From a virus (Duplodnaviria; Caudoviricetes), in the IMG/VR virus record IMGVR_UViG_3300023246_000570, positions 1-61,779 of that record: DNA of 61,779 bases. One strand, given 5' to 3'. Made by a program: the position numbers and the translations under genes. The notes under the pieces were generated by a model that saw only the letters and a program-made list of their open reading frames with translations, was not told where the DNA came from and searched no databases. Shown one piece after another: positions 9,199 through 61,779 of the stretch; position 1 is the first letter of the stretch; every line of letters starts with the position of its first letter.

Positions 9199-9487
9199 CA
9201 CTATGTCAAAAAAGAACACAAATATAGGCGAAGCCGAAAACCTTAAATAGAGTAGGCAAACTAAATTTAGAAATAATGAACCAAACAGAAAAAGTACAAA
9301 GTATGTTAAACAGCGAAATTAACAGCTTACAGGTCTTAACTCTTAAAAGAGAGGTTGCATTGAGGAAATTCAAAAGAAGTGCTTATATAGTACTCTTATT
9401 CATTGCAACGAGTAGTATAATACTTGGATGTTGTAATGTTATTTGAGATAGTGATAAATAGTAATTATTAATTTAAAATATAAAGTT

Positions 9488-13307: not shown

Positions 13308-13505
13308 ATGCACATCAATAAGAAAGCAATAGATAAAAGAATTACAGAAACAGGGATTAAGAAAAACTATCTCGCCCTAAAGACCGAAGTGTGTCGCACT
13401 ACCTTCTATAAGTATATAGGAGGCAAGTGTGATGTGCCTCATCGGTTTGTTGTGTTATTAGCATTTGCTCTTAATATCTCTGTGAAAAAGATTTACAAGG
13501 AGTAA
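13308..13505 (+). CDS. Cro/XRE-type HTH regulator
   Basis: KKNYLALKTEVCRTTFYKYIGG HTH pattern and LAFALNISV tail. Confidence 0.7.
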   Translation: MHINKKAIDKRITETGIKKNYLALKTEVCRTTFYKYIGGKCDVPHRFVVLLAFALNISVKKIYKE

Positions 13506-13539
13506 GATTTTTTGAAATAGTCATAAATAAAATTAAGTT

Positions 13540-15113: not shown

Positions 15114-15317
15114 ATGAAAAGAAACCAACTATTAGAAGAGTTTAAAGAATTAATAATTAAGTTATCTGAACTTGGAGAGTATGTAGCTTTATTAGAATTT
15201 AAAGATAGCAGACCTAATATATCAAAGCTAAAAAACGGTTTAAATGAGTCAATAGAAGATTTAAAACAGTTTAAAAGAAAAGTTGATGAAGTTAGGAGAG
15301 TTATACAAAATAAATAG
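15114..15317 (+). CDS. Coiled-coil hypothetical protein
   Basis: ORF between the motif at 15091 (reverse) and 15326 (forward). Confidence 0.6.
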   Translation: MKRNQLLEEFKELIIKLSELGEYVALLEFKDSRPNISKLKNGLNESIEDLKQFKRKVDEVRRVIQNK

Positions 15318-15466
15318 AATTATACGAAATAGTCATAAATAACAACTATCTAACACTATCTCAAAAAATAATCTTAATTAAGTTTTTTAAATTGGTAAAA
15401 ATTCTTACCTTTGCAAAAGAATTAGAGAGAAGCCAAAGTATTTATTAATTTAAAACATTTAAAGTT

Positions 15467-31811: not shown

Positions 31812-34800
31812 TTACTGAAACTCTTTTAAATATTCTCCACTTTCTTTTTCTTCTTTTTCTCTTTCCTCATCTCTCTTCTCTCTTTCCTCTTCTGTGAGAT
31901 ATACTTTCTTTTTGTCAAAAGGACTAACATATTTATAGATGCTCGGAGTTCCATGTCCTGTAGCTGCACCACCTGCATTTGAAATAAATTTACCTATAGC
32001 ATTTTTCTTATCGTTAGGTAGTTTTTCAAAATCTTCAATACTTGTTATTTTATAATCAACAAATATTTTTATTGCCTTACCCATATCGCTTACTATTTCA
32101 TTTGCAATTTGAAGTGTAGGTACAAGCGAATTGTTTCTATAGTATTCACCCTTTACTTTTGATTCTACCGTTTCCTTTATACTTTTCGCAACAGGAGAAC
32201 CTTGCAATATTCCAGTTATTGCAACATCCATCATTTCTGACCTTTCAAACATTTTTTCAAATTCTTCCTCTGTTGCTTTTTCAAATTCATCAGTTTCGCC
32301 TCTTAATAATGCAGCGGTTATAGAACCAGTAAACATACCTGCAACAGTCTTCCACATTAATGGTTGAATGTAGCCATAATATCCTATCTGTTTAATCCCT
32401 GCGATTCTTTCAGCAGTCTTGGCAGATTTAGAAAACGCAATCCTTACTCCCTCTCTAAAATTCTGTCCCATCTGAATAGGTGCAGAAACATAAGGAAATA
32501 TTGAACCAAATTTACCTATTTGCCATGAAGATAATAGGTGTGGAGCACCAGCAGGTTGCTGTACTCTGTGTCCTTCCATCATTGCTTCTTCAAACGCCTT
32601 TCCTCTTGCTTCTTCTTTTGGCATATTTTTTTGGTATCTTTCAAATAAAATATCAAAATTAGGTTTTATTCCTATAAACGCAGATATATCACCAACTTTA
32701 ACAGGAAGCGACTCAATTTCTTTTAAAAATTTATTAAATATTTTAAATCTCTCCATAACGGTCAATGGTACTCCCATCCACTTATTAGAATATTTTTGCA
32801 TCACATCAAGAACAGGTGAATCTTTTAAATAATTTATAATATGTGGGTCATGTCCTGACGTTAATCTCATCCATGCCATATCGCTTTTTGCAAATGCTTT
32901 GGCAAAATCTCCATACGTTCTTGGGTCTGCTAATCTTAAAGCATATAATGGCTCAGATAAAGCAGAACTTATAATATTGCCATTCTCTGCCATAAGTTTA
33001 TTAAAATGTGTTGTTGAATTTGCAAAAGACGAAACCTGCTTAGGTAAAAGACTTAGGTTTCCTACAATTTTTGATATAACAGCATTGTTAAGTAGCTTTA
33101 TGCCAAAATATTTCTGCTGTACTCCTTCGGGATAATTGGCATATAATTTGTCCATAGATTTTAATATCTTATTTCCAAATGGTATATGTTTTTTAATAGA
33201 ATTTCTTACGTCTGTATTTCTGTAAATGTAATTCCACTTCTCATTAACCTTGCCGTATGCGTTCCATTTAGTAGCATTTTCAAAAGCATTACGATAAGTT
33301 TTATAAATATCAACTCCTTTTAATTTAATCTCTCTTGGATTTGCTCTGTTAAATACTGTTCCTGGTATTAGACTTTTCTTTTCAACTTCTCCTTTTCTCA
33401 TTTGTTTCTGTCCTTGAATTGCCTCTCGTTGTATATAGTTTTCCATATTAAACATATCCTTACCAAACTTTCTTTTATAGGGTTCGTTTAATATTTTATA
33501 TAATTCAGGATTTGCAACATCGACCATAAAGTCTGATAAAGATTTTAGATTCTTATTCTCATTAAGTATATTCTCACAATGTTGTTTTAAATCTTGTACT
33601 GATTCAGAAGACAGTATCTTTTCAACTATCTTTACGTTTTCAGCATTTCTTAATACCATATTGATATATACAATATCATTATAACTCATTTTGTTATAAT
33701 CTGTAACTACCGTACCTTCATTAGTTAATATGTCTTCCTTAACACCCAAGTCTTTTTTCTCTGTAAAGAACCCACGTTTTTCTTTTGACCCTATGAGTTT
33801 CTTTTTTATCAGTCCTTCATGTTCGCTTAAAGCAGATTCCATTTGTTTAACAACAAGACCGGTTCGTCTTTCTAATTCAGCATACTTCATGTATGAGCTA
33901 TCAAGGTCTTTATCCAACTTCATTACTTCTGCTCGCTTTTTAGAATCCCTTACGGTATATTCTAATAGTCCCCTCATATTTTCAAATGGTATATTTAATC
34001 CTTTTGCCACATTTAAACTAAATCTTGAAACAGGTTCAACTTGTTTTGTTTTTAGTTCTGCTTCTCTGCCAATTATTTTCTCTATTTCTAATTTTTTCTT
34101 AGTAATAGTCTTAGAATTATTTTCAACAACATTTATCTTTTTGATAAACTTTTCTTTTTTTCTTTTCGATAATTCTGAATCAGTAATATTCTTTCTTAAA
34201 TTATCGTATGCTTCTTTTGGAGATGCCAATAATTCATTATCAAATTGATTTATCATTTCATCTCTTGCAAATTCACTCTCTGTCTTTGTTGCATCAATAA
34301 CATTTTGTCTTTCTTGTTTTCGTTCTTCTATTTCTGCTTTGATCTGCTCACGTCTCTCCTTTGCAGATTTTAAACTTGCTTGTTCAAGTTCACTTATGCT
34401 ATCCATCTTCTCTTTAGCCTCCTCAAACAACCTTTTTCTTTTTTCATATTCCTTCTTTGGAGTATTCTTATATTCTTCTATTGTATTTTTTAACTCTCTT
34501 ATGCTGTTGCCTGTTTCCTGTAATTGCATATCAAACATCAATAGTTCATCAACAGCAGTCTCTTTTTCTAATCCTTCCTTCTTACTAATAGCATCATCAA
34601 CTAATTGCTCCCTCTTTGAATTTAGTACTTCTGAATATTCTGGAGTATCTTCAAGTTTTTTTGCTGTATCAATGTATTCATTAATCTTACCTATTATTTC
34701 TGCGTATTCAACTGTCTTTACTGCAAAATCAACTTTTCTCTTTTCGCCTATATTTTTCTCTTTACCAACAGCAAGTATATCATTGAATCTTTTCTCAATA

Positions 34801-37800
34801 TTTTTAAAACCTTCACTTACTGTCCTCTCTCCAGTTGCTTTATTAACTATGTTCCCAATTTTTTCTATTACATTATTTATTCCTTCTTGTGTTGTTTTAG
34901 GACTATTGATAGCTCTTAATATAGATGTTATATTAACTCCTTCTAATTTTCTTAATTCTTTTGCATTGGCACTTATCCATTCAGAATATACATCTCTATT
35001 GTATCGCTTCCATAAATCTTTAGTCTTTTGCTTATCTCTTGTTGCCTCTATTTTTTTCTTATATTTTTCAGTTATCTTATTTATCTTATCTTTAGTTTCT
35101 TTAGCAATATCTAACTCCTGCATTTTTAACCATACATCAGCAGATTTTTTAACATCTGCCTCTACAGCTTTCTCAACCGTTTTATATACCTCTGGCTGTG
35201 TGAGTGCTATTTTCAATGCTTCATATTCCTGGATGAGTTCTTTTGGTTTGCCTTCTACTGTTTTCTCAATGTCTTTTTGTATTTCTGTCTTAGTTGGTTT
35301 AGTTTCTAACTTCTTGGCAAAATCTCTTTTAATATCAAACTCATCTTTAATAGCTTTTTTAGTTTCATTTTTATTAAGTAATGCTAAGATTTCACCTTTC
35401 ATTGTTGGGTCAGTAATATTTTTATCTACCCACTCTCTTACCTTTTCATACACCTCCGATACCTTTACCATAGACATATCGTATGCTCCAGAAGCAATCT
35501 TTTTTAACGCATCAACAACTTCTGTTCTCTTCTCTCCTGTCAAATCAAGTTTACCACCAAAAGCACTCATTATATCATCAAGTCCTTCTGCCATTTGCTC
35601 TTTTCCCTTTTCGTATTTCTCCCCACGTTTAAGTATTTTCTCTACACTATCAAATACAGCATCATGTTCTTGGTCTGTTTTCCATAACCAACCTAACTCT
35701 TCTTTTTTCTCCTTTATATTTTCAAGTGTTATATTTTCCTTTTCAATAATACTCTCTGCTTGTGTCCTATTATTCTCTGATACTATTTCTAATATACCTT
35801 CCTCAGTACCCTCTTTTTTCTTCGTTAGTTCCAATGTTTCTTTAAACTCTTTTAATGGAGCATCTTTAGTTTGATAAGATACTCCCGAACCTTGTGATAC
35901 TTCTACATAACCCTTTTTATCCCATTGTTCTATTCTATCCAATACTTCTTTAGCTTCTTCTGTTGGTCTGTTCTCTGCTATATCTTTTAATCCTTTCTTA
36001 ACAGATGATTTTGATAAACCACCAAAAGATACTCCTGTTAATACGTCTTCATCTATTTTAACTTTCTCGTTAAATGTTTCATATAAATCTTGTACTTCCT
36101 TTTTCTTTTCTGAAATAGCGACATAATCTTTTGCTACTTGCTCTCCTAATGATGTGCGATTAACTTTCTTACCTTCTTTTGTTAATTTAATCTCTGTGCT
36201 ATAAGAAGTAATTTTCTGCTCATCAAATCCTGCATCACGTATCTTCTTGCTTAATCTTGGATGTTCTATTTTACGCTTGGAAACAGTTAAAGCATTGTAC
36301 TTCTCTACATCTGTTATTAAATCATTCTTTGTTTCTTCTTCTTTGGTTAACTCTTTTTCTTTTATCTCTTGTAGCTTAACAGGTTCTTTCTTTTCAGTAA
36401 CTTTTTCTTTTTCCGAAATAGTCTTAGATAGCTCTTCTTTAGGCTTAATAGGTTCTTCTTTAGGCTTAATAGGTTCTTCTTTAGGTTTCGCAGGTTCTTC
36501 TTTAGGTTTAATAGGTTCTTTAGTTTCCAATGGCTTAGCTTCGGGATATAGTTTATTGCTTAATTCTTCCTGCTTAACTTTTAATTCTTCATTTATTTTA
36601 TCTGTTTCTACTTTCTTAACAGAATCATCAAGATAAGTATTTTCTTCAATCACTTGTTTCTGATTTTCTAAATCATTAATTTCATCTGTAGTCTTGCCTG
36701 TTTTTGCTTTAGTATCTTCTGCAACTGTTTTATTAACTTTATCAATAATTAAATTCTTAGCTTCCGGAGACTCATTGCTTTCTTTTACATTCTTTATTAT
36801 CTCTGCTGAATTATCAACAACACTTTGATTTATGATTTTATTATCAGCTATTCCATCTGCAACTTTTGCTGCTAAAATTAATTCTTTTTGTTTTTGCTTA
36901 TTAGTTTCTTTGCCTGCTTCTTCTCTTAATTCAAACGCTTTTTTTCTTAACTCAATAGGACTGCTTTTTGTTTCTCTTACTATAATTTCATTTTCAGGAG
37001 TAGACGACAACCACCTTCCCCACATCTTCTCTTGCCTATTTTCTAAAATTTTCAATTGCTCTAATTCGCTTAATTTTGGAACACTTTTTACATCCATTCC
37101 TTTAAGAAAAGTACTTTTAACCTTTTTTGTAGCTATATCTTTGCCTCCCAATGCTAATCCTGTAGCACCTGCATCATACACGCCATCCCAATCAACCACT
37201 TCTCCGTATTCCAATATTTGCTCTGCTGCTGTCTCCCCTCCAAATAATCCAGCCAATGAAACATGGGATGATATTTCCCCTAATATTGGCTTCTTAGTTC
37301 CCTTGATTACCGCTTGTCCTAATTTCCCCGATACTCCGCTAAGCATATATAATATCCCTGCATCTTTTGCTCCTTTTAAAGCACCTGTTTCGTATTCTTT
37401 AAATTTTTCAAATATTGGTTTTCCCTCATTTTCTGCTTCTCCGTATGCACGAAAACCTCCAGAGCCAGTCATATATGCAAACATTGATGGCACACTCGCA
37501 AGCCCCGTAACACCTTTTAATACACCAATTCCTAATCCAAAACTTCCCATTATATGCTCAACAGAACCAACAGCTCTGCCTATAACCGTATTCGGATTAT
37601 CAAGCCATTGTTTTGATTGTCCCTTCATCCAATTACTTAATTGCCATAATGGTCTTTCTTCTTTAGCAGCTTTACCATAATTCTTATTTAACTCCTGCCA
37701 ATATTCAGGCTTATCTGATTTTTTCTTTTCATACCCCAATCCTATCGCTTCACCGCCTTCTATTAATATATCACCAAGCATTACAGACATTCCATCTAAA

Positions 37801-38612
37801 GCATCAACATTTTCAGCAACACCAAGTCCTACATTCCTAAACAGTCCCTGTATATAACTACTTGGACTATCAGGCTTCATATTGTCTATTGCTTCTTGTA
37901 ATCCTTCTGCTTGTCCCATTACAGATTGATACTCTTCTTCCGAAGCAGCATTAGAAGCAACTTCCATTAATACATCTTGTTGTTTTTTTAGGGAGATAGT
38001 CTGAGTTCGTTTTATTTCAGCTTTCTCTTTTAATAACTCAGTCTTTTCTTCTTTACCTTCTGCTATGTATGGATTTAATACATCTAATGATTTTTGATTT
38101 TCCACTAATACGCCTGCTCTGAAATCTATTTTTTCTTGTTCATCTCTTGCTATTTTAGCCAACTCTCCTTCTGTGCGTATAGGTTTTTTCTCTAATGCTT
38201 TTGATTGTAATTCGGGAGACAGCTTTTTAAACGAAGTGTAATCCACAAATTGTTGTTGAGTTTCCTCTACTTGTTCTGGAGTTACTGCCTCCATTTGTCT
38301 TACTAACTCAGGAACAGCAGGAGGTATTTCAGGTTTTGAGATAGAAGGGGTTTCTAATGCCACTCCTTCTGAAACAGTCGCAGAAACTTTTCCAGTAGCT
38401 CCTGAAATTTTGTCTTTTTTTTTTAAGTCAGAGAAATACTTTTCATTAAACTCAACATACGAATTTGTATATTTTTTATCTTTGATAAGTCCATCATACA
38501 AGATTTTGCGATTACCTTCGTCTGAAAACTTTGCATTAAAATCATCATACGTTTTAGTATAATCTCCATCGTCAACTAATCCACGATGTAGTTTTTTTCT
38601 TTCATCTTTCAT
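31812..38612 (-). CDS. Giant (2266 aa) probable internal virion/ejection protein
   Basis: Large K/E-rich helical protein with a Gly-rich amphipathic region, following two other ejection-like genes; no RNA polymerase catalytic motif seen. Confidence 0.65.
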   Translation of the reverse strand: MKDERKKLHRGLVDDGDYTKTYDDFNAKFSDEGNRKILYDGLIKDKKYTNSYVEFNEKYFSDLKKKDKISGATGKVSATVSEGVALETPSISKPEIPPAVPELVRQMEAVTPEQVEETQQQFVDYTSFKKLSPELQSKALEKKPIRTEGELAKIARDEQEKIDFRAGVLVENQKSLDVLNPYIAEGKEEKTELLKEKAEIKRTQTISLKKQQDVLMEVASNAASEEEYQSVMGQAEGLQEAIDNMKPDSPSSYIQGLFRNVGLGVAENVDALDGMSVMLGDILIEGGEAIGLGYEKKKSDKPEYWQELNKNYGKAAKEERPLWQLSNWMKGQSKQWLDNPNTVIGRAVGSVEHIMGSFGLGIGVLKGVTGLASVPSMFAYMTGSGGFRAYGEAENEGKPIFEKFKEYETGALKGAKDAGILYMLSGVSGKLGQAVIKGTKKPILGEISSHVSLAGLFGGETAAEQILEYGEVVDWDGVYDAGATGLALGGKDIATKKVKSTFLKGMDVKSVPKLSELEQLKILENRQEKMWGRWLSSTPENEIIVRETKSSPIELRKKAFELREEAGKETNKQKQKELILAAKVADGIADNKIINQSVVDNSAEIIKNVKESNESPEAKNLIIDKVNKTVAEDTKAKTGKTTDEINDLENQKQVIEENTYLDDSVKKVETDKINEELKVKQEELSNKLYPEAKPLETKEPIKPKEEPAKPKEEPIKPKEEPIKPKEELSKTISEKEKVTEKKEPVKLQEIKEKELTKEEETKNDLITDVEKYNALTVSKRKIEHPRLSKKIRDAGFDEQKITSYSTEIKLTKEGKKVNRTSLGEQVAKDYVAISEKKKEVQDLYETFNEKVKIDEDVLTGVSFGGLSKSSVKKGLKDIAENRPTEEAKEVLDRIEQWDKKGYVEVSQGSGVSYQTKDAPLKEFKETLELTKKKEGTEEGILEIVSENNRTQAESIIEKENITLENIKEKKEELGWLWKTDQEHDAVFDSVEKILKRGEKYEKGKEQMAEGLDDIMSAFGGKLDLTGEKRTEVVDALKKIASGAYDMSMVKVSEVYEKVREWVDKNITDPTMKGEILALLNKNETKKAIKDEFDIKRDFAKKLETKPTKTEIQKDIEKTVEGKPKELIQEYEALKIALTQPEVYKTVEKAVEADVKKSADVWLKMQELDIAKETKDKINKITEKYKKKIEATRDKQKTKDLWKRYNRDVYSEWISANAKELRKLEGVNITSILRAINSPKTTQEGINNVIEKIGNIVNKATGERTVSEGFKNIEKRFNDILAVGKEKNIGEKRKVDFAVKTVEYAEIIGKINEYIDTAKKLEDTPEYSEVLNSKREQLVDDAISKKEGLEKETAVDELLMFDMQLQETGNSIRELKNTIEEYKNTPKKEYEKRKRLFEEAKEKMDSISELEQASLKSAKERREQIKAEIEERKQERQNVIDATKTESEFARDEMINQFDNELLASPKEAYDNLRKNITDSELSKRKKEKFIKKINVVENNSKTITKKKLEIEKIIGREAELKTKQVEPVSRFSLNVAKGLNIPFENMRGLLEYTVRDSKKRAEVMKLDKDLDSSYMKYAELERRTGLVVKQMESALSEHEGLIKKKLIGSKEKRGFFTEKKDLGVKEDILTNEGTVVTDYNKMSYNDIVYINMVLRNAENVKIVEKILSSESVQDLKQHCENILNENKNLKSLSDFMVDVANPELYKILNEPYKRKFGKDMFNMENYIQREAIQGQKQMRKGEVEKKSLIPGTVFNRANPREIKLKGVDIYKTYRNAFENATKWNAYGKVNEKWNYIYRNTDVRNSIKKHIPFGNKILKSMDKLYANYPEGVQQKYFGIKLLNNAVISKIVGNLSLLPKQVSSFANSTTHFNKLMAENGNIISSALSEPLYALRLADPRTYGDFAKAFAKSDMAWMRLTSGHDPHIINYLKDSPVLDVMQKYSNKWMGVPLTVMERFKIFNKFLKEIESLPVKVGDISAFIGIKPNFDILFERYQKNMPKEEARGKAFEEAMMEGHRVQQPAGAPHLLSSWQIGKFGSIFPYVSAPIQMGQNFREGVRIAFSKSAKTAERIAGIKQIGYYGYIQPLMWKTVAGMFTGSITAALLRGETDEFEKATEEEFEKMFERSEMMDVAITGILQGSPVAKSIKETVESKVKGEYYRNNSLVPTLQIANEIVSDMGKAIKIFVDYKITSIEDFEKLPNDKKNAIGKFISNAGGAATGHGTPSIYKYVSPFDKKKVYLTEEEREKRDEEREKEEKESGEYLKEFQ
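36433..36520 (-). repeat. 21-bp coding tandem repeat (EPIKPKE, about 4 copies)
   Basis: Protein reads EPIKPKEEPAKPKEEPIKPKEEPIKPKEE. Confidence 0.85.
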
Positions 38613-38614
38613 AA

Positions 38615-40333
38615 TTAGTCGTATTTAGCTTTCTTGTAAGACTTCCCTGTAGGTTCTTTTCCCTCAGATGGATGTTTAACTTCTTCTGTTGGTGTCTCCT
38701 TTCTTTTTCTTTCTTCATTCGCAGCTTTTTCGGCATTTGTAAAATCCTGCTTAAATATAGCAGTAAAATTTGACTTTACATTATCTAATGGCATAATTAA
38801 ATTTAATTCACTTGGCTTCATGCTTTTTGTTTCCCATACATCTTCACTTACTTCTTCTCTTATTGAAATAGATTTATTCCTATCTGACATTGCTTCAAGC
38901 TGAACAAATCTACCTTCCTTGTCTTCCATTCCCCTTCTTCCAAATTTAGTATCACCAACCTTTATAGGAACAACATCAAGAATATTTATAATTTCAATTT
39001 TATTTCCTGTCTTTAAATCATACACATCTTTTTTACCAGGTTGAACCTTCATTGTTTTTCCTGTTATCTTAGGAAAAGAATAACCGTTATCCCACGCAAG
39101 GTCTATATTCTCACCCGTATGTGTTGTAGCTGATATTGTTTCATCACTAATAGTATATTCTACTTCTTCAAGTTCTTTTCCATGTGTTGCCAATTTTTTA
39201 GCAAGTGCATGTTTCCTATAAGACATATCTTTTTTCTTTATATTTAACTTTGGAACAATCTCATGTTTTATTCTTGATAATGCAGCTTTAGAAACAGCTT
39301 TAAATCCACCCTCTGGCTCTTGTCCTAATACTTCTCCTTCTCCTTTAAGTTTATAAGTATCGTCATACCAAATCTGCAAATCTGCAATTGCTGCATCTTC
39401 ATCAAAAACAATTTCATCATTATCATCCATTTTCAAATACGGAGACTTATGTGTTAATTCTTGTACTTTATTAAAATCTGCATCTCCCAATCCTTCCAAT
39501 TGATTAACGCTTATCATTGTCCTGTCTGCTAAATCTTTTGTTGAAATTTCTATAAATTTCGACAAACTCTTATGTGAAGTTGATAATCTGTTTCCTGTTT
39601 CGCTAATTGTCTTAACAGTCTTAGCCCAATCTTCCTCTGTCATATCTCCGCTTATTAAATCCGCACCCTCAATCATATCTCTCGAGTCTCTTACTTGAGG
39701 CTTTGTGTGTTCATCGGGACTTGCAAGTATGTCTATTGCTGTTTCATACGACTCATTCCATAATGCTGCAATATCTTCGGACTCCTGAATTATTTTATCC
39801 ATTCCTGGTTTTGCATACACACCACCATAAGCACCAGAACCGCCATGTTTTTCTTTGGAAATCCCAACAGACTTCTCCCAATTCAATCGGAGCATCTTTT
39901 CTTGTCCTTTATGAAACAATATATTTTTATCAAGGTCTACAATGTCTGCATATTTTACTTTGCCTGCTCTTCCTTTTTCTAATAATTTTTGTTTTGCTAA
40001 TTTCTCCTCAGCCTGTCTCGCATTTAAAACAGCATAAGGAAACAATCCACCTGTTGCTGCTATGGTTGGTGCAGAAAAAGTTTTACCACTATATCCTTGT
40101 TGTGTAACAGGAGTATCTCTTCCTGGAAAAAATGCGTCTTCGCTAAGTCCTGCTTCTTTTAAATTAAAACCTGGACTCTTTGCAATTTGTAGTTGCTCAT
40201 CTATGTAATCTCCTGTTGCATCTAATTCCGCAGGATTAAAAATATTGGAACTTGCAGGAGAAGTTACTCCCTTTGCATTACCAAGTATATCCGAGATACT
40301 TGTTTCTATATTTACATTTTCTAAATTTGCCAT
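38615..40333 (-). CDS. Probable internal virion/ejection protein
   Basis: Lies between the pilot-like gene and the giant gene; composition fits. Confidence 0.55.
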   Translation of the reverse strand: MANLENVNIETSISDILGNAKGVTSPASSNIFNPAELDATGDYIDEQLQIAKSPGFNLKEAGLSEDAFFPGRDTPVTQQGYSGKTFSAPTIAATGGLFPYAVLNARQAEEKLAKQKLLEKGRAGKVKYADIVDLDKNILFHKGQEKMLRLNWEKSVGISKEKHGGSGAYGGVYAKPGMDKIIQESEDIAALWNESYETAIDILASPDEHTKPQVRDSRDMIEGADLISGDMTEEDWAKTVKTISETGNRLSTSHKSLSKFIEISTKDLADRTMISVNQLEGLGDADFNKVQELTHKSPYLKMDDNDEIVFDEDAAIADLQIWYDDTYKLKGEGEVLGQEPEGGFKAVSKAALSRIKHEIVPKLNIKKKDMSYRKHALAKKLATHGKELEEVEYTISDETISATTHTGENIDLAWDNGYSFPKITGKTMKVQPGKKDVYDLKTGNKIEIINILDVVPIKVGDTKFGRRGMEDKEGRFVQLEAMSDRNKSISIREEVSEDVWETKSMKPSELNLIMPLDNVKSNFTAIFKQDFTNAEKAANEERKRKETPTEEVKHPSEGKEPTGKSYKKAKYD

Positions 40334-40334
40334 A

Positions 40335-41000
40335 TTATCTATTAATAAATGGAAGTCTTGGAATTATTTCTTCTTCGGGCAATTCTTCTGCACCTCTTGT
40401 TTGCATTGTCTGTAGTCCACTTGTTGGAAGAACACTTGTCGGAAGAACACTCGCTAAGCCACCCATTATATTACCCATTGCAGTTTTCTTTAACTCCGCA
40501 GATTCTCTCATTTTCTGTAACTTCTCCCACATCTGTAAATCCATTTTACGTGAGGCTATCTTGTCAAGTTGTGTTGCTGCTAATTGTGTAAACACCCCTA
40601 CTTGCTGTGATTGTAATGCTGCTAATCTGTTTGTAGCATCTCCTGCTGTTCTCTGTGCTGCTTGAAATCCTTGCAATGTAGTACCTACTCCTCCACCTAC
40701 TGTCTGTACGTTCTTCTGTGTTTGTGCTAAATTTTTCCCTATAATATCTGATATATATTGATATTCAGGACTTGTTCCAACTTCTAATTGTCTTTTCTTT
40801 CTTTGAATTTGATTTAGCATATCCCTTTGTTCAGGGTCTTCTAATGGTGCTCCGAGCTTATCAGCTTGGTTTCCTTTTATCATTCCCTCTATTCCTCCTC
40901 CAATACCTGCACCTATGCCTGCACCTATACCTGTTCCTACTCCTGGAATAACAGAACCAGCAATACCACCTATTGTTGTACCTAATAATTGTCCAATCAT
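40335..41000 (-). CDS. DNA pilot/ejection-like protein
   Basis: Glycine-zipper N-terminus (GGIAGSVIPGVGTGIGAGIGAGIGG) followed by a Q/A-rich helical body. Confidence 0.65.
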   Translation of the reverse strand: MIGQLLGTTIGGIAGSVIPGVGTGIGAGIGAGIGGGIEGMIKGNQADKLGAPLEDPEQRDMLNQIQRKKRQLEVGTSPEYQYISDIIGKNLAQTQKNVQTVGGGVGTTLQGFQAAQRTAGDATNRLAALQSQQVGVFTQLAATQLDKIASRKMDLQMWEKLQKMRESAELKKTAMGNIMGGLASVLPTSVLPTSGLQTMQTRGAEELPEEEIIPRLPFINR

Positions 41001-41085
41001 AGCTTAAAATTTAGCACAAATATAGTTTATTTTTTTAGAATAACAAAAAAAGTTCGTGTATATATTTTTATGTTTCTGTAAGTTG

Positions 41086-41126
41086 CTTATTTATACTTGT
41101 TCTTAATAAGAATTGTTTTATCTTTG
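41086..41126 (+). promoter_or_regulatory. Bacteroidota sigma-A-type promoter (TTG...TAnnTTTG) overlapped by a palindromic operator-like box
   Basis: TTG at 41097 and TATCTTTG at 41119-41126; the same layout occurs at 31204-31243, 55531-55571 and 59996-60035. Confidence 0.7.
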
Positions 41127-41159
41127 TACGAAATAGTCATAAATAAAAAATTATGAATT

Positions 41160-41304
41160 ATGATACTTAAAAAAATATTGAGTAAGGGACTTACTCTGAA
41201 AAATCGGAATGAACTGTCTACGTTAGTAGAAGTGTTGACTTCCGAAGCCCATCACATCGGCTCTGCCGTGTGTGGGTAGTTCACTTATTGCTATTTTGGA
41301 AAAT
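41160..41304 (+). ncRNA. Orphan TnpB omega-RNA-like element / IS200-IS605 right-end copy with putative guide
   Basis: 41242-41284 is the exact reverse complement of 47986-48028, ending GGGTAGTTCAC. Upstream hairpins GAGTAAG/CTTACTC and TCTAC/GTAGA; TATCTTTG promoter at 41119. Confidence 0.7.
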
Positions 41305-41339
41305 CCAAAATAGTGTTAAATAAATTAAAATTGAAAATT

Positions 41340-41447
41340 ATGGCAAAACAAGGAACACCTAAAAGAGATGGAAGCGGACAAGGTACTCGTCAAAATCAAG
41401 GTCGTGGTGGTTGTAAGACTACTAAAAAAGTTGGTAAAGGTAAATAG
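41340..41447 (+). CDS. Small basic Gly-rich peptide (35 aa), not in the ORF track
   Basis: AAAATTATG leader; MAKQGTPKRDGSGQG...; between motif copies. Confidence 0.5.
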   Translation: MAKQGTPKRDGSGQGTRQNQGRGGCKTTKKVGKGK

Positions 41448-41502
41448 GTTTAATTACACTATCTCGTATTATTATATGAGATAGTGTTAAATAATTTTAA
41501 CT

Positions 41503-41823
41503 ATGGAATACTTAGAAAAATTAGAGAAAAAAATTGACATTCTGTATAGTAAAATTAATTCATTACAGCAAACAATAGACAATAGGCTGTCTGTAATTGA
41601 AGATGATTTTTATGTAGATGACTATTTTGAACAAATGCCACATGACGGTAAAAAGAAAATACTAAAAACAAATGCAACTCCTTTCTGTAAGTGGATATAT
41701 GTTGGAAGAGGTACAGAACCTTGTCTCTGTACTCACTACACAACAAAGGAAAATTATGCTAAAAATTATGATGAAATTAAAAGTGAAGAAGAGATAATTA
41801 AAGAGAAGGAAAATTCTATTTAA
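41503..41823 (+). CDS. Accessory hypothetical protein
   Basis: Flanked by inverted motif copies at 41478 and 41816. Confidence 0.65.
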   Translation: MEYLEKLEKKIDILYSKINSLQQTIDNRLSVIEDDFYVDDYFEQMPHDGKKKILKTNATPFCKWIYVGRGTEPCLCTHYTTKENYAKNYDEIKSEEEIIKEKENSI

Positions 41824-42371
41824 CACTATCTCAAAAAATAAATTAAAAGTTCTTTGGTATATTGAAAAAATTGTTTATATTTGCACTTGAATTTCAGATA
41901 AAATTTATGTGTAATTATAAACAAAAATATTGGTTATGTGGTGTGAGTAAATTCTCTACACTTTGTGCATTGATTTTGTCTGAAACTCACATCACATAAC
42001 TGTTCTTAACTCAAAACAGTAGGACTTGATTATATCGAAGTCGAAACAAAAATTGAGTATAAAGGTTGCGAACTCAACGGTGCAGAAATAAATGTTTAGT
42101 GTATGCTCTGTGATTAACCACAACATACGACCTAAAGTAAATAATGCAGACGAGCCAAAAGTTATGTTTTACTCTTTAGCATAACACCATGTAATGGGTA
42201 GGGATGGGAGAATGTGATAGCAACAGCTTACTTTTTTAAAGTTCTTATTAAAGTAAAGAAATACTAAAGTTGCTCACTTTAGGGATAAAGGGACTGTTAT
42301 AATTAAAAACTAAAACTATTTTGATAACTATTTGAAATAGTGATAAATAAAATTAAATTAGAATTAAAATT

Positions 42372-42629
42372 ATGAAAAAATCAAAAAAGGAACGATTATC
42401 AGAACGCATTAATAAGCGTTTTAGAATTTTACATTTTCCATTAACTGGCAAATTTTATCCACAATATAGGGGCTATTGGCTTCTGAAGCAATATGGAACT
42501 GGAATTATAAGAACTGAAAGTATGTTTGATATTGCTGATGGATTTAGTACAGAAGATAATGCAAGAGAATATGTAGAACTCTATAAAGAACAAAAATTAA
42601 TGCAAAATATTAATTACATTAATTGTTAA
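42372..42629 (+). CDS. Accessory hypothetical protein
   Basis: Downstream of the motif at 42334. Confidence 0.65.
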   Translation: MKKSKKERLSERINKRFRILHFPLTGKFYPQYRGYWLLKQYGTGIIRTESMFDIADGFSTEDNAREYVELYKEQKLMQNINYINC

Positions 42630-42672
42630 TTTGAAATAGTGTTAAATAATTTTTTAATTAAAAATTAGAATT

Positions 42673-43026
42673 ATGAATTGGGAAGAAATATCAAAAAAAT
42701 ATCCTAAAGGATATAGTCTTTTACGGGGTTATGCAAAAACTTCAAAGCCTGAATTTGTTTGTTCAAAAATAATAAAAGGAATAAGATATTTATATGACTT
42801 CTTTGATGAACAATCTATATTCATTATAGTTGATTTAGAAATACAGCATACGAGAACAATAGATGAGGATGGAGAAAACCCACATTATGTTCCAGAAGGA
42901 TTTAGATTTGAAATACATGATAATTCATATTGTATAGCACATTCCGATAAAGTGTATAAAACAAGAACAGAATCCGAAACAAAAGCATTTACAAAAGGAT
43001 TTGAATTATTGGAACAAATTATCTAA
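42673..43026 (+). CDS. Accessory phage hypothetical protein
   Basis: LYDFFDEQ...TRTESE..AF.KGFELL pattern; flanked by inverted motifs at 42633 and 43019. Confidence 0.7.
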   Translation: MNWEEISKKYPKGYSLLRGYAKTSKPEFVCSKIIKGIRYLYDFFDEQSIFIIVDLEIQHTRTIDEDGENPHYVPEGFRFEIHDNSYCIAHSDKVYKTRTESETKAFTKGFELLEQII

Positions 43027-47901: not shown

Positions 47902-47985
47902 ACGAGATAGTGTTAGATAATTTAGTGCAAATATAACAAATTTTGCCTTAATAACAAATTTAGAATTTTTCTAAATAGAATAGTG

Positions 47986-49260
47986 GTGAACTACCCACAC
48001 ACGGCAGAGCCGATGTGATGGGCTTCGGGTTTCACAGGATATGCACTATTGCTAATGTCTAATTTCTCCTCCACCTTTGTAATCGACAGTTCCTGCCGAT
48101 GTATTTTTAATCCTTCTTTTAGAATATTGATACTTGCGTTTTCATCTCTATCTAATTCAGTTGAGCATTTAGGACAAGTCCAATTTCTAATTGAAAGGTT
48201 TAAATCTTGATTTATATATCCACAAACATTACAAGTTTTTGAACTCGGATACCAACGATTAATCTTAACTACGGTTTTATCGTTCCAATTTGCTTTATAT
48301 TCAACAAATCTAACAAACGTACCCCAACTTGCATCTGCAATATGTTTAGATAGTTTATGATTTTTAATCATTCCTTTTACGTTCAAATCTTCTAAGCAAA
48401 TTATATCATAATTAGATACAATTTCTTTACTTACTTTATGTAATATATCTTGTCTTGTATTGGATATTTTCTCGTGTATTTTAGCAACTTTGAGTTTTTG
48501 TTTTTCAAACTCATTACTACCTTTTTGTTTACGAGAAAGATGTTGTTGTGCTTTCTTTAATTGTCTTTCATAATTTTTTGTGTATCTATTATTTTTGTAT
48601 TTAATATTATCAGACGTAATGGCAAAATCTTTTAACCCTAAATCTATACCAACCGATTTACCAGTTTTTTTGCTTGGTATATATTCTTGTTCTGTTAATA
48701 TAGAAACAAAATATTTACCTGTCGGTGTTTTAGATATTGTGAATTTACCTACCTTACCTTTAATTTCTCTATGAATATTTACTTTAATACCACCCTTGAA
48801 CTTTGGTGCGTATATTCTACCGTCAAGTACTTTTGTAAATTGTGGTATTGTAAATACATTCTTTTTACGTTTAGACTTAAATTGTGGAAATTGTGCATTG
48901 CCACGAAAAAAATTCACATAAGCAGTATCTAAACTCCTTAAAGCAAATTGTAATGTTTGTGAATTAACTTCTTTCAACCAAATAGTATCCTCTTTTTTCT
49001 TTAATTCAGTTAAAGTTTTGGCTTGTCCGTAATAATTGTCAGTTTTTTTATCTGCTTGGTATTGTTCTTTTCTCTCATTTAAAAAGTGATTGTAAATATA
49101 TCGAACACAACCAAAGTGCTTATCTAACAAGGTTTTCTGTTCCTTATTAGGTAATAATTCAAATTTGTATGTCCTGTGTATTAACTTCATCTATTATTAA
49201 ATAGTCTAATATTTTGTAAAAGTACAATTATTTATACAGAAAAGCAAGTATTTTATAAAT
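47986..49260 (-). mobile_element. tnpA-less IS200/IS605-family element (IS1341-like); left end approximate
   Basis: tnpB plus a right-end hairpin ending ...GGGTAGTTCAC at 47986; no tnpA in the window. Confidence 0.75.
47991..49190 (-). CDS. tnpB: RNA-guided endonuclease TnpB
   Basis: HTH_OrfB N-terminus (FGCVRYIYN), RuvC-I GIDLG, RuvC-II LEDL, Zn ribbon CNVCG/CPKC, RuvC-III DRDENA; the D-E-D triad is intact. Confidence 0.95.
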   Translation of the reverse strand: MKLIHRTYKFELLPNKEQKTLLDKHFGCVRYIYNHFLNERKEQYQADKKTDNYYGQAKTLTELKKKEDTIWLKEVNSQTLQFALRSLDTAYVNFFRGNAQFPQFKSKRKKNVFTIPQFTKVLDGRIYAPKFKGGIKVNIHREIKGKVGKFTISKTPTGKYFVSILTEQEYIPSKKTGKSVGIDLGLKDFAITSDNIKYKNNRYTKNYERQLKKAQQHLSRKQKGSNEFEKQKLKVAKIHEKISNTRQDILHKVSKEIVSNYDIICLEDLNVKGMIKNHKLSKHIADASWGTFVRFVEYKANWNDKTVVKINRWYPSSKTCNVCGYINQDLNLSIRNWTCPKCSTELDRDENASINILKEGLKIHRQELSITKVEEKLDISNSAYPVKPEAHHIGSAVCG

Positions 49261-49326: not shown

Positions 49327-49485
49327 ATGAAAAAATTAATTAAGAAATGGAAAATGGAACTCGAATTAGCTGAGTTAATACTCGCCCTTGTGGTTAAATA
49401 TAACTGCGGAAATGTAATATTTCATAAATGCAAAGTTGCTATATTAAAAGAAATATTAGAAGAATTAGAGGAGGCACATACCTAA
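49327..49485 (+). CDS. Small hypothetical protein (52 aa), not in the ORF track
   Basis: Short ORF ending in the motif copy at 49482. Confidence 0.4.
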   Translation: MKKLIKKWKMELELAELILALVVKYNCGNVIFHKCKVAILKEILEELEEAHT

Positions 49486-55390: not shown

Positions 55391-55708
55391 TTTGTTAAAT
55401 TTTGGTTTTTAATTTTAATTCTAATTTTCGGTGCAAAGATAACTAATTTTAGATAATATACAATAAATAATTTGGAATAATTCTAAATAGAGTTATAATT
55501 ATCTGAAATAGTGATAAATAAAATTAGAGTCTAATTTGTACTTGTTCTAAATAAGAAATTGTATACATTTGTAATGTTAAATTAGAATCTAATTAACACT
55601 ATCTCGTATGAAATTAACAAAAAAAGAATTAAAAGAATTTAGAGACAGTATCATATTCATGTATATTGTAGGATTTGCAATACTAATTTATGGCTTAATA
55701 ACCAAAAC

Positions 55709-59987: not shown

Positions 59988-60084
59988 CGGCATCGCAATT
60001 TAGACTTGTTCTTAATAGAATTTATTGTATGTTTGCATAAGATTATAATTATTTGAAATAGTGATAAATAGCAAAGATTAAAAA

Positions 60085-61170
60085 ATGAAAAACTACAAAA
60101 ACTTAAAATTTCACGAAATACAGCCACACACAGATAAGTGGTTTAAATTTAGAGAAAACGGAATAGGTGGAAGTGAACAATCTGCTGTACTGAGTATGAA
60201 CCCATACAAGTCTTCTATGCGAGTCTATGCCGAAAAAACAGGATACGTACAAGCCAAAGAGGTAAAAAACGAAGCAACCTATCATGGCACACATCAAGAA
60301 GCCTACGTAAAAGATTTTATTTGGCAATACCACGATGGAACAGAAGATGGATATATCAACCAAATTCCACAAAGAACATATCGCAACATCCCTGCTTACG
60401 CAGTAAATCCAAAGTACCCTCATCTGTTTGCAAGTGTAGATGGACTAATAGACAAAGGACAAGCAACCTTAGATGGAGAGATACTTGTAAAAGACGGAAT
60501 ACTTGAAGCTAAAACTATAAACGGTATGTATGCTAAGATGTGGGATTCAGGCGTTCCTATTTACTACATTATTCAAGTAATGCACTATCTGATAGTATAT
60601 GGATTAGAATATGGCGAGATAGTCTCATTTATTGATGGTAGAAAAGCAAGTCTTTATTCTGTGTCTATGGACACCGAATTGGCAGAAAAAATAGTAAGTG
60701 CTTCTTCGCAGTTTTGGAACGAGAGAGTTGTTCCAGGTAAAAAAGTTGTAGAAGAATGGAACAAGGCTAAAAAAAGTGGAGAGAAGTTAGATCAGCTACA
60801 AGAAGAAATAGACCGGCTTATGCCTCCTCCTGATTCTTCTGATGATTGTAAATTGTTTTTAAAAGAGATTTACAGAACAGAACTTGATAGTATGATAGGA
60901 GATAGTCATACTTACTCTACTGCAAGAAGAGTTCATTTGCTTAACAGAATGATAGCTGTACTAACTACAGAAAAAACATATTGTAATAATATCTTACAAG
61001 AGAAGTTTGTAAAACAGAGAGTTGAGAAATTAACCTTTGATGACAAAGGATATATCAAATTTACAAAAAGAGGGAACTCGGAGTTACCATCTCTACATAA
61101 TGGAGTCTCAAAAGATGGTATTGATTCAGATTTAGCAAAACATATACTGTCTAAGACTGAGATTTTTTAG
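60085..61170 (+). CDS. YqaJ-like viral recombinase / lambda-type exonuclease
   Basis: W...R..GIGGSE, ASVDG, LEAKT and YIIQVMHYL motifs. Confidence 0.88.
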   Translation: MKNYKNLKFHEIQPHTDKWFKFRENGIGGSEQSAVLSMNPYKSSMRVYAEKTGYVQAKEVKNEATYHGTHQEAYVKDFIWQYHDGTEDGYINQIPQRTYRNIPAYAVNPKYPHLFASVDGLIDKGQATLDGEILVKDGILEAKTINGMYAKMWDSGVPIYYIIQVMHYLIVYGLEYGEIVSFIDGRKASLYSVSMDTELAEKIVSASSQFWNERVVPGKKVVEEWNKAKKSGEKLDQLQEEIDRLMPPPDSSDDCKLFLKEIYRTELDSMIGDSHTYSTARRVHLLNRMIAVLTTEKTYCNNILQEKFVKQRVEKLTFDDKGYIKFTKRGNSELPSLHNGVSKDGIDSDLAKHILSKTEIF

Positions 61171-61213: not shown

Positions 61214-61779
61214 ATGGAAAAAATAAAAGGATTTAAAGCGTTCAATAAGGGTTTAAAATGTAAAAATAAAACCTATAAAGAAAATACAACATTTAAAGAA
61301 AATGGTAATATTGGAATATGTGAAAAAGGAATGCACTTTTGCGAAATGCCTTTAGATGTGTTAAATTATTACCCATATAATCCAAATGAAACTGAATTTG
61401 CAGAAGTTGAGGCAATTGGAGATATTAAAAAAGATGACAATAAAACAGTAACAAATAAGTTGCGGATAAAATCAAAAATATCTTTTCAAAAATTATTAAA
61501 ATTACATTTTGATTTGGTTTTTGAAAAAGTTATAGTTAATAAAGATACGACTAACACGGCAGGAGATAGGGCACACGCTAACACGGCAGGAAATGAGGCA
61601 CACGCTAACACGGCAGGAGATTACGCACACGCTAACACGGCAGGATATTACGCACACGCTAACACGGCAGGATATTACGCACACGCTAACACGGCAGGAG
61701 ATAGGGCACACGCTAACACGGCAGGATACAGGGCACACGCTAACACGGCAGGAAATAGGGCACACGCTAACACGGCAGG
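61214..61779 (+). CDS. Phage protein with 9-aa tandem repeats (DUF7666-like), truncated by the window end; missed by the ORF track
   Basis: MEKIKGFKAFNKGLKC...CEKGMHFCEMPLDVLNYY N-domain followed by (HANTAGxxA)n. Confidence 0.8.
   Translation, partial: MEKIKGFKAFNKGLKCKNKTYKENTTFKENGNIGICEKGMHFCEMPLDVLNYYPYNPNETEFAEVEAIGDIKKDDNKTVTNKLRIKSKISFQKLLKLHFDLVFEKVIVNKDTTNTAGDRAHANTAGNEAHANTAGDYAHANTAGYYAHANTAGYYAHANTAGDRAHANTAGYRAHANTAGNRAHANTA
61551..61779 (+). repeat. 27-bp coding tandem repeat, at least 8 units
   Basis: CACGCTAACACGGCAGGA-NNNNNN-GCA; only two codons vary. Confidence 0.92.

What the first reader, a model, noticed from the sequence alone, without database searches (positions are those of the whole stretch)
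41119..41304. Orphan, promoter-linked omega-RNA-like element that could reprogram the phage TnpB in trans
Seen: 43 bp (41242-41284) identical to the 3' end/right end of tnpB (47986-48028, opposite strand). The upstream roughly 80 nt differ in sequence but keep a similar hairpin layout (GAGTAAG-gga-CTTACTC versus TCGGCAG-gaa-CTGTCGA). There is no tnpB body, and a TATCTTTG promoter lies just upstream. Established: TnpB omega-RNAs overlap the tnpB 3' end and take their guide from the flank after the right end. Predicted guides are TTATTGCTATTTTGGAAAAT (orphan) and CACTATTCTATTTAGAAAAA (tnpB-linked). Inference: one nuclease with an intact catalytic triad and two guides, possibly for homing or inter-phage competition. 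The alternative is a decayed IS remnant.
Basis: partly seen in the sequence, partly recalled or inferred. Interest (0 to 1): 0.8.

Follow-up and report, generated by a model that had tools for sequence, protein, structure and literature searches.

The report
Standalone TnpB guide RNA in phage
A salt-lake phage carries, behind one of its own promoters, a complete guide-RNA scaffold left from a transposon whose nuclease gene is gone, which is a known kind of element that may or may not still steer the phage's one intact TnpB nuclease.

Summary
41242-41284 is a perfect 43-nt inverted copy of the right end of the resident tnpB element. The ~77 nt upstream fold into the same helices.

The orphan (41167-41284) is a full-length omega-RNA scaffold with no tnpB body and no left end. 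Its upstream part belongs to a different tnpB lineage, which I call C-type. C-type TnpBs are 44% identical to the resident A-type TnpB.

The 43-nt identity is mostly family-wide conservation. C-type relatives elsewhere share 40 of 43 positions; only one compensatory A-U pair is specific to the two copies in this phage.

The scaffold sits about 40 nt behind a Bacteroidota-type promoter. Its right-end junction lies in a reverse copy of the phage's repeated motif, where other copies carry the inferred TAM TTTAT.

Related phages hold many gene-less omega-RNA elements. Standalone omega-RNAs acting in trans are already in print.

I found no evidence for transcription, TnpB loading or a target. My odds are: immobile leftover about 0.5, active trans guide about 0.35. 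It is a new member of a known kind, of moderate interest.

The parts
41097..41126 (+). Bacteroidota-type promoter-like site (TTG, 19 nt, TATCTTTG) facing the orphan and the rightward genes
   Evidence: Pattern TTG-N18-21-TAnnTTTG. Part of the 61-nt repeat family D8, which has 5 copies in the window. That this consensus is the Bacteroidota sigma-A promoter is recalled knowledge.
41129..41145 (+). Copy of the phage's repeated motif (CGAAATAGTCATAAATA), followed by ATG codons at 41153 and 41160
   Evidence: Repeat families D4, D5 and D9. The relative L126 carries the other motif variant at this same place.
41167..41284 (+). Orphan omega-RNA scaffold, C-type upstream part plus right end. Helices: P1 41180-41186/41190-41196; long-range helix 41204-41210/41238-41245; P2 41212-41214/41234-41236; P3 41217-41221/41226-41230; terminal hairpin 41247-41277; right end at 41284
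   Evidence: Model R1 gives 70.7 bits, E 1.3e-11, full model length. Model R3 (C-type, upstream part only) gives 81.1 bits, E 8.7e-16, with all 17 pairs standard. MFE is -39.9 kcal/mol, z -5.31, 0 of 200 shuffles as good.
41242..41284 (+). 43 nt identical to the right end of the resident element
   Evidence: I3. Comparison with family variants.
41160..41279 (+). Open frame of 39 codons, the leftover of a C-type TnpB C-terminus (not claimed to be a gene)
   Evidence: Translation. tblastn of C-type TnpBs matches 30-37 aa here at 59-67% identity. No Pfam family.
41285..41304 (+). Predicted 20-nt guide of the orphan (TTATTGCTATTTTGGAAAAT). It is itself a reverse-oriented, diverged copy of the phage motif
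   Evidence: Right-end boundary. Likeness to motif copies.
41304..41322 (+). Forward copy of the phage motif. It forms an inverted pair with the guide region (hairpin 41291-41313) ahead of the small ORF 41340-41447
   Evidence: (D5).
47986..48111 (-). Resident (A-type) omega-RNA scaffold, lying wholly inside the 3' end of tnpB
   Evidence: R1 gives 141.1 bits. Structure supported by covariation in 25 relatives. The tnpB stop codon TAG lies in the conserved GGGTAGTTCAC.
47991..49190 (-). tnpB, 399 aa, with RuvC motif residues conserved
47966..47985 (-). Predicted guide of the resident omega-RNA (CACTATTCTATTTAGAAAAA)
47986..49254 (-). Probable extent of the resident element. TTTAT (49259-49255 on the minus strand) directly precedes its left border. 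No left-end hairpin and no tnpA
   Evidence: Sequence. Comparison with left ends of relatives. Weak lead: one contig in 1 of 4 runs joins 47985 to 49255 (depth 2.7, 30-nt side, content between the sides unknown).

Best explanation
41167-41284 is a complete but gene-less guide-RNA (omega-RNA) module. It consists of the last ~117 nt and the right end of an IS605-family element.

Origin. That element belonged to a tnpB lineage (C-type) different from the phage's resident tnpB (A-type). It inserted into a reverse-oriented copy of the phage's repeated regulatory motif, at a position where other copies carry the TAM TTTAT. A later deletion removed its left end and the tnpB body. This fused the scaffold to a phage promoter and start region.

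Present state. It is most likely transcribed passively, as the leader of the rightward operon, and it can fold as a full scaffold. However, it is immobile, and I read it as a leftover with no required role.

The shared A-U pair. The one base pair it shares only with the resident copy is best explained by sequence exchange between the two copies in one genome.

Confidence by step. Identity and lineage are shown (about 0.9). The order of events, transcription and lack of function are inferred. The 0.5 below is for the whole statement, including 'leftover'.
For: Identity:
- A covariance model built only from 25 tnpB-linked relatives finds two places in the window, the resident scaffold (141.1 bits) and the orphan (70.7 bits, full model length).
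- A model of the C-type upstream part alone, built from 7 elements, 6 with a long tnpB match and one truncated (L122, 88 aa), and excluding the shared 3' 41 nt, scores 81.1 bits. The next hit scores 13.7 bits.

Foreign lineage:
- C-type TnpBs are 44% identical to the resident TnpB.
- The window holds no other tnpB. tblastn finds only the resident gene and the 30-37 aa leftover.

True transposition junction:
- 13 of 15 hairpin-type left ends examined in relatives follow TTTAT.
- The orphan flank TTATTGCTATTT matches, with 2 mismatches, five motif copies in this genome that are directly preceded by TTTAT.

A decay landscape in related phages:
- They hold truncations of many lengths. These include 88 aa left (L122), 26 aa left (L114/L120, which also has a 1-nt loss in the terminal hairpin), only the terminal hairpin (L100), and broken tnpB genes with stop codons.

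No mobility:
- No left-end hairpin lies upstream of the orphan.

No target:
- There is no other match with 2 or fewer mismatches over 16 nt in the window.
- There are 0 exact 20-mers in IMG/VR.

The 43-nt identity is weak as a sign of partnership:
- 40 of 43 positions are shared with C-type relatives elsewhere.
Against: - The scaffold shows no decay at all. All 17 upstream pairs are standard under R3, and the pairs of the terminal hairpin form in the minimum-free-energy fold.
- By my own reading (counted by eye, not tallied by a script), about 12 changes are unique to the orphan against its C-type relatives. About 9 of them lie in helices. All of those keep or add pairing: two compensated pairs in P1 and P3, one new pair in P1, and one compensated pair in the terminal hairpin.
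- What is kept (117 nt) matches the minimal active scaffold of ISDra2, which is 116 nt (passages read).
- The deletion ends fall about 40 nt after a promoter on one side and at the scaffold start on the other. That is an unlikely pair of coincidences for a random deletion.
- The orphan shares with the resident copy a derived A-U pair seen in no other locus apart from L003/L004/L045/L075, which come from two other IMG/VR contigs.
- The orphan is present in contigs of two of the four runs laid, X17 and X23 (table 8). These are DNA contigs only.
Confidence: 0.5

Rival explanations
1. Active standalone guide RNA.

Mechanism. The promoter at 41097-41126 drives the scaffold plus guide. A TnpB loads the RNA and cuts DNA that carries TTTAT followed by TTATTGCTATTT... 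The TnpB could be the resident A-type one, or a C-type TnpB of the host or of a co-infecting phage.

Consequence. The target is the uninterrupted form of this motif site in related phages. Repair from the orphan-bearing genome then copies the locus, giving homing or competition between phages. The phage's own allele is protected, because the scaffold separates the TAM from the target.
For: - Complete, undecayed scaffold with structure-preserving changes only (changes read by eye).
- Length equal to the minimal functional scaffold of ISDra2.
- The P1 loop GGA and the 3' GUUC could form the pseudoknot described for ISDra2. This is inference by analogy, without covariation support.
- Promoter in the sense orientation about 40 nt upstream.
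- TnpB motif residues intact.
- Derived A-U pair shared with the resident scaffold.
- Gene-less omega-RNA elements abound in related phages. Some have a promoter-like TATATTTG just before the scaffold (L103). They often lack a cognate tnpB in the same genome: the complete record G004 holds 4 B-type mini-elements, and tblastn finds no B-type tnpB there.
- Standalone omega-RNAs were reported to work in trans with compatible effectors. PATEs that encode omega-RNAs were proposed to need TnpB in trans (passages seen).
Against: - The resident TnpB is of another lineage. The resident-type upstream model gives the orphan only 17.9 bits, E about 0.05. The conserved single-stranded stretches differ: UGGAG and GUGAAA against CGAAC and GUUGAC.
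- No C-type tnpB is in the record. The record is 87% complete.
- No target was found. The nearest TTTAT-flanked sites in the phage have 2 mismatches at seed positions 5-6 and 5-7 mismatches over 20 nt.
- No left end is present, so the transposon-retention logic of TnpB does not apply.
- The compensatory changes may all predate the loss of tnpB.
Confidence: 0.35
2. Exapted cis-acting leader. The stable structure now serves the downstream genes (small ORF 41340-41447 and those beyond), as an RNA stability or processing element. Read on the other strand, it could act as a terminator for leftward transcription.
For: - It lies between a promoter and the next gene, in the sense orientation.
- The fold is very stable (z -5.31).
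- On the minus strand the P1 stem is followed by a T run, and the scan calls it terminator-like (41196-41180).
Against: - Nothing links the structure to the downstream genes.
- The fold is fully explained by its omega-RNA ancestry.
- No relatives were available to test conservation in place.
Confidence: 0.08
3. A small protein. The 39-codon frame 41160-41279, a TnpB C-terminal tail, is translated from the ATG that follows the phage motif.
For: - The frame is open for 39 codons. It starts 15-25 nt after a motif copy, as many genes here do.
Against: - The equivalent C-terminal domain of ISDra2 TnpB is disordered and not needed for cleavage (passage).
- No Pfam family matches.
- The open frame is expected from recent descent and from the RNA constraint.
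Confidence: 0.03

Closest known systems
Standalone omega-RNAs of OMEGA systems (described in the introduction of Altae-Tran et al., PNAS 2023, PMC10691335, citing their 2021 Science paper, which I did not see)
   Same: An omega-RNA scaffold plus adjacent guide, with no effector or transposase gene. It lies in a genome that also holds an effector-containing locus. [quoted passage not shown]
   Different: Those are described as evidently mobilized copies compatible with the resident effector. This one has no left end, is fused to a host-type promoter of a phage, and its scaffold comes from a lineage other than the resident TnpB's. Function was not tested here.
PATE-like gene-less IS200/IS605 elements that encode omega-RNAs (Meers et al., bioRxiv 10.1101/2023.03.14.532601; passages seen)
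   Same: A gene-less derivative of an IS605-family element that keeps the omega-RNA and right end and would need TnpB in trans. True PATE-like elements of this family occur in related phages. Their layout is TTTAT, left-end hairpin, scaffold, right end, about 225 nt in all (L095-L098, L102-L105).
   Different: The window's orphan lacks the left-end hairpin that defines a PATE, so TnpA cannot move it.
ISDra2 TnpB omega-RNA (Nakagawa et al., Nature 2023, PMC10097598; passages seen)
   Same: The scaffold overlaps the 3' end of tnpB and ends at the transposon's right end. It has a functional core of 116 nt plus a 16-nt guide, with several stems. The resident TnpB aligns to ISDra2 TnpB at E 2e-82. 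The orphan keeps 117 nt.
   Different: The sequences are unrelated at the RNA level as far as I tested. The pseudoknot is only inferred here. The TAM inferred here is TTTAT. That the ISDra2 TAM is TTGAT is recalled.
Solo right-end or 5'-truncated IS remnants
   Same: The left end and gene body are lost and the 3' end is kept. Such truncations of several lengths occur in related phages.
   Different: Here the part kept is exactly a whole, undecayed guide-RNA scaffold placed behind a promoter.
TldR guide RNAs (Wiegand et al., bioRxiv 10.1101/2023.11.30.569447; only the search listing and the start of the abstract were seen)
   Same: TnpB-derived RNA-guided systems domesticated for a host or phage function.
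   Different: TldR proteins are nuclease-dead. The TnpB here keeps its catalytic motifs, and no link to transcription control was found.

Membership tests
TnpB omega-RNA (IS200/IS605 OMEGA guide RNA) | Conserved, covariation-supported scaffold that ends at the transposon's right end | tested here: met
   Structure of 36 pairs on 25 tnpB-linked relatives: 94.4% of cells paired against 33.6-42.0% when slid, 20 pairs changed on both sides, 0 of 500 shuffles as high. The orphan matches the model over its full length (70.7 bits) and matches the C-type upstream model (81.1 bits).
TnpB omega-RNA (IS200/IS605 OMEGA guide RNA) | Guide taken from the flank directly after the right end | tested here: met
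   In 36 non-redundant relatives, similarity stops right after GTTCAC. The orphan ends with the same GTTCAC at 41284.
TnpB omega-RNA (IS200/IS605 OMEGA guide RNA) | Overlaps the 3' end of a tnpB gene in cis | tested here: not met
   Only 30-37 codons of a TnpB C-terminus remain. This makes it a standalone form.
TnpB omega-RNA (IS200/IS605 OMEGA guide RNA) | Pseudoknot between the 3' end of the scaffold and a 5' region | tested here: inconclusive
   The P1 loop GGA/GAA(C) and the 3' GUUC are complementary and sit at ISDra2-like distances. Both are invariant, so no covariation test is possible.
TnpB omega-RNA (IS200/IS605 OMEGA guide RNA) | Bound by TnpB and directs TAM-dependent DNA cleavage | not testable with these tools
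   Needs RIP-seq or cleavage assays.
Same scaffold type as the resident (A-type) omega-RNA | Upstream 85 positions fit the A-type model | tested here: not met
   R2 gives 17.9 bits, E about 0.047, tied with a chance hit at 60982-61062, and the printed alignment is not the homologous one. R3 (C-type) does not find the resident scaffold.
PATE / mobilizable standalone omega-RNA element | Left end with a subterminal hairpin after a TAM, paired with the right end | tested here: not met
   Upstream of 41167 are a promoter and a phage motif, with no ACCCAT...ATGGG-type hairpin. Relatives L095-L098 and L102-L105 do have one.
Rfam families | Match at gathering score | tested here: not met
   Only DUF805b at 9224-9258 reached threshold in the window. 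Nothing was found at the orphan or at the tnpB 3' end.

The most novel reading that the evidence does not exclude
The orphan is a domesticated, promoter-driven second guide-RNA gene for the phage's single TnpB. In this reading, one nuclease is served by its own guide and by a heterotypic, gene-less scaffold. Both guides are aimed at TTTAT-flanked copies of the regulatory motif that this phage group uses throughout its genome. The pair then acts as a homing and anti-competitor system between co-infecting phages. This would be a natural step from a transposon-bound TnpB towards a nuclease with separate, independently expressed guides, the step thought to precede CRISPR-Cas12.
Probability: 0.2. 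Interest if true: 0.8.

Novelty: new member of a known kind. Interest (0 to 1): 0.45.

Why it matters
If active, it would be a natural case of a TnpB served by a separately transcribed guide-RNA gene of foreign origin in a virus. That bears on how RNA-guided nucleases came loose from their transposons.

It would also bear on how phages compete, by homing at regulatory-motif sites.

Even as a leftover, it shows two things. The TAM of this IS605 group (TTTAT) is built into the phage's most frequent motif, which makes that motif an insertion hotspot. And these salt-lake phages and their relatives in IMG/VR are rich in gene-less omega-RNA elements.

Tried and rejected
Sequencing runs
- 24 runs hold the stretch, all listed as DNA. 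No RNA holder is listed, so expression could not be examined.
- The joint 41146 to 41816 seen in all four runs laid is a repeat artefact. The joined form, with its CAA, is the window's own locus at 15327-15371 (I4 and D6).
- The loose ends at 41127 and 41129 are the loci at 15.3 kb and 8.9 kb.
- The loose end at 41316 in X24 (one contig) may be a relative without the orphan.

Relatives of the phage at the orphan site
- blastn of 40300-42700 against the phage records: no match.
- The 572-aa neighbour protein in IMG/VR: none.
- The same protein in JGI metagenomes: two contigs (L125 at 99%, L126 at 73% in that gene). Both end at window position about 41158-41161, the orphan's left border, so they say nothing on what follows.
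- A 24-mer from the end of L126 is absent from IMG/VR.

Exact-pattern scans
- Orphan P1-region 37-mer in IMG/VR: 0.
- Orphan guide 20-mer in IMG/VR: 0.
- TTTAT plus resident guide (hypothetical empty site) in IMG/VR: 0.
- Guide-plus-motif 25-mer in metagenomes: 0.
- Records of the window's own genome, or ones very near it, may be left out of these collections.

Host-genome scan
- The scan for TTTAT plus the orphan guide got no answer from the machine three times. The cap then counted as used. Host targets are therefore untested.

Leads that failed
- L033's flank starts TTATTGCTTT, like the orphan guide, but it diverges after 9 nt and is not orthologous.
- My early idea that two orphans share the same 5' border was wrong. 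L120 keeps about 20 nt more than the window's orphan.

Annotation
- PHROGs and Pfam give nothing for the neighbouring genes or the small frames.

- Supplementary files of papers were closed. The extended data of Meers et al. on PATEs, and the lists in Altae-Tran et al., may hold phage cases like this one.

Full report
**Setting.** The window is a whole IMG/VR virus record of 61,779 nt, estimated 87% complete. Near-identical DNA occurs in 24 salt-lake metagenome runs. No similar phage is in the GenBank phage set, and the neighbouring genes have no PHROGs or Pfam names.

**The observation.** The repeat finder gives arms 41242-41284 and 47986-48028, 43 nt, 100% complementary.
- The partner lies at the 3' end of a 399-aa TnpB gene, 47991-49190 on the minus strand. 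The protein has the OrfB_IS605, Cas12f1-like TNB and HTH domains.
- It aligns to ISDra2 TnpB at E 2e-82, with the D, E and D motif residues conserved in the printed alignment.
- The stop codon of tnpB lies inside the conserved end GGGTAGTTCAC, so the whole resident scaffold is coding sequence.

**The family and its RNA.** I fetched 60 IMG/VR loci encoding relatives of this TnpB. In 36 non-redundant 3' ends, similarity stops directly after GTTCAC. This fixes the right end and the start of the guide.

On 25 tnpB-linked sequences I wrote a structure of 36 pairs: P1, a long-range helix, P2, P3, GAA/UUC and a terminal hairpin.
- 94.4% of cells pair, against 33.6-42.0% when the partners are slid.
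- 20 pairs change on both sides.
- 0 of 500 shuffles reach any of the measures.

**Is the orphan such an RNA?**
- A covariance model from those 25 sequences (orphan excluded) finds exactly two places in the window at E up to 10. They are the resident scaffold (141.1 bits) and 41168-41284 (70.7 bits, E 1.3e-11, full model length).
- Folded alone, the 117 nt give the same layout at -39.9 kcal/mol, z -5.31, with 0 of 200 shuffles as good. The resident gives -35.6, z -2.31.
- The 78 nt that end just inside the shared 43-mer (41168-41245) give z -3.85.
- A model of the resident-type upstream part alone scores the orphan only 17.9 bits (E about 0.05). That is tied with a chance hit, and the alignment is wrong.

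So the upstream part is not a diverged copy of the resident scaffold.

**Its true kin.** Searching the model through 50 viral records that hold tnpB relatives gave matches in 46 of them, several with many matches. One tnpB-less match (L107/L108, one phage) looked like the orphan. A pattern taken from both found 13 IMG/VR loci.
- Most of these sit at the 3' end of full tnpB genes of another lineage, which I call C-type.
- A model of the C-type upstream part only, built from seven elements, six with a long tnpB match and one truncated (L122), scores the orphan 81.1 bits (E 8.7e-16) with all 17 pairs standard. The next hit in the window scores 13.7 bits, and the resident scaffold is not found.
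- C-type TnpBs are 44% identical to the resident TnpB.
- The window has no other tnpB. It holds only a 30-37 aa leftover of a C-type C-terminus at the orphan, still open for 39 codons.

**The 43-nt identity re-weighed.** The 43-mer is the conserved right-end hairpin.
- L037 differs at 2 positions.
- L106 and the C-type loci L111, L112 and L121 differ at 3 positions.
- What the orphan shares only with the resident copy is one compensatory pair, A-U where all others have C-G. The same pair occurs in L003/L004/L045/L075, which come from two other IMG/VR contigs.
- I read this as sequence exchange between two copies in one genome. Selection for a common partner is the alternative.

**Insertion site and TAM.**
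- 13 of 15 hairpin-type left ends examined in relatives follow TTTAT. The two exceptions are L057 and L021.
- The resident element's left border (49254) directly follows TTTAT. One contig in 1 of 4 runs joins 47985 to 49255. This is a weak lead, with depth 2.7, a 30-nt side and unknown content between the two sides.
- The resident element has no left-end hairpin and no tnpA. Several relatives carry a divergent Y1 transposase gene.
- The reverse complement of the phage's repeated motif (GAAATAGTCATAAATAAA) reads TTTATTTATGACTATTTC, so it contains the TAM.
- The orphan's flank matches five TTTAT-preceded motif copies with 2 mismatches in the first 12 nt. The resident's flank matches the neighbouring register.
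- Both elements therefore sit in motif copies. The orphan's right junction looks like a genuine transposition junction.

**Left side of the orphan.**
- A TTG-N19-TATCTTTG site lies at 41097-41126. It belongs to a 5-copy, 61-nt family.
- A motif copy follows at 41129-41145, and then ATG codons.
- Homology to C-type elements starts at about 41156-41166.
- I infer a deletion from just inside a phage gene start to the start of the scaffold.
- The 117 nt kept equal the 116-nt functional scaffold of ISDra2 (passages).

**Wider landscape.** The complete record G004 has 11 model matches:
- four lie at tnpB genes, one of which is broken;
- four are PATE-like mini-elements (TTTAT, left-end hairpin, scaffold, right end);
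- one is a scaffold without a left end;
- one is only a terminal hairpin;
- one is another left-end/right-end element.
Its four mini-elements are of a scaffold type (B) for which tblastn finds no tnpB in that genome. Truncations of many lengths occur in this group of phages.

**What is known.** Meers et al. write that PATEs often encode omega-RNAs that would need TnpB in trans (passage). Altae-Tran et al. write that standalone omega-RNAs occur beside effector loci and were shown to work in trans with compatible effectors (passage). I did not see the 2021 paper they cite, nor any supplements.

**Verdict.** The element is real and well defined. It is a standalone, left-end-less omega-RNA scaffold of foreign lineage, sitting behind a phage promoter.
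- For activity: its perfect state, its length, its promoter and the shared base pair.
- Against activity: the lineage mismatch, the lack of any target, and the abundance of IS605 debris in related phages.
- I put a passive leftover at about 0.5 and an active trans guide at about 0.35.
- Transcription, loading and cleavage are all untested.

Noticed in passing
window, many sites, e.g. 5230-5256, 8917-8943, 13503-13529, 15315-15341, 41129-41145, 41467-41493, 55494-55520, 60044-60070: A 16-17-nt motif, GAAATAGTCATAAATA or GAGATAGTGTTAAATA, recurs dozens of times. It usually lies 10-30 nt before a start codon. It often occurs as an inverted pair that can form a hairpin (e.g. 41456-41487). An orthologous site in relative L126 carries the other variant. 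It may be a phage-specific promoter or regulatory site. Its reverse complement contains the TAM TTTAT.
   Followed up: partly
window 12044, 31206, 41089, 55534, 59998 (61-nt family D8): Five copies of a promoter-like block, ATTTATACTTGTTCTTAATAAGAA...TAnnTTTG. More TTG-N-TAnnTTTG sites lie ahead of genes, including 47928-47958 (-) just past the resident guide and 41017-41047 (-) facing away from the orphan.
   Followed up: partly
window 9224-9258 (+): Rfam DUF805b RNA motif, 45 bits against a gathering score of 35.6. It was the only Rfam match in the window.
   Followed up: no
window 61497-61766: Seven or more tandem copies of a 27-nt unit at the very end of the record.
   Followed up: no
window 36419-36523: Tandem 21-nt repeats inside the 2266-aa gene (31812-38612, minus strand). 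They encode a PKEEPIK-like repeat.
   Followed up: no
G004 (IMG/VR record of L007): 68114-68260, 48794-48940, 40339-40485, 232-371; G040 72040-72186 and 16645-16775: PATE-like mini IS605 elements of about 225 nt, laid out as TTTAT, left-end hairpin, promoter-like stretch, omega-RNA scaffold, right end. There are several copies per phage genome, at different sites.
   Followed up: partly
window 47985/49255; run X23: One metagenome contig joins the two flanks of the resident tnpB element exactly at its inferred borders. This could be an empty or a differently filled site. Depth over tnpB is 2-4 times that of the flanks in X23, as expected if tnpB-like DNA is multi-copy in the sample.
   Followed up: partly
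window 41340-41447 (+): A 35-aa, very basic, glycine-rich open frame (MAKQGTPKRDGSGQG...) directly after the orphan's guide and a motif copy. It has no Pfam or PHROGs family.
   Followed up: partly
window 49327-49485 (+): A 52-aa open frame, divergent from tnpB, lying just outside the resident element's left border where relatives carry tnpA. No Pfam family.
   Followed up: partly
L124 (G004:33529-33635, minus strand): A fourth scaffold type at the end of a tnpB that is 46% identical to the resident one. It has a different upstream fold but the same GGGTAGTTCAC end.
   Followed up: no
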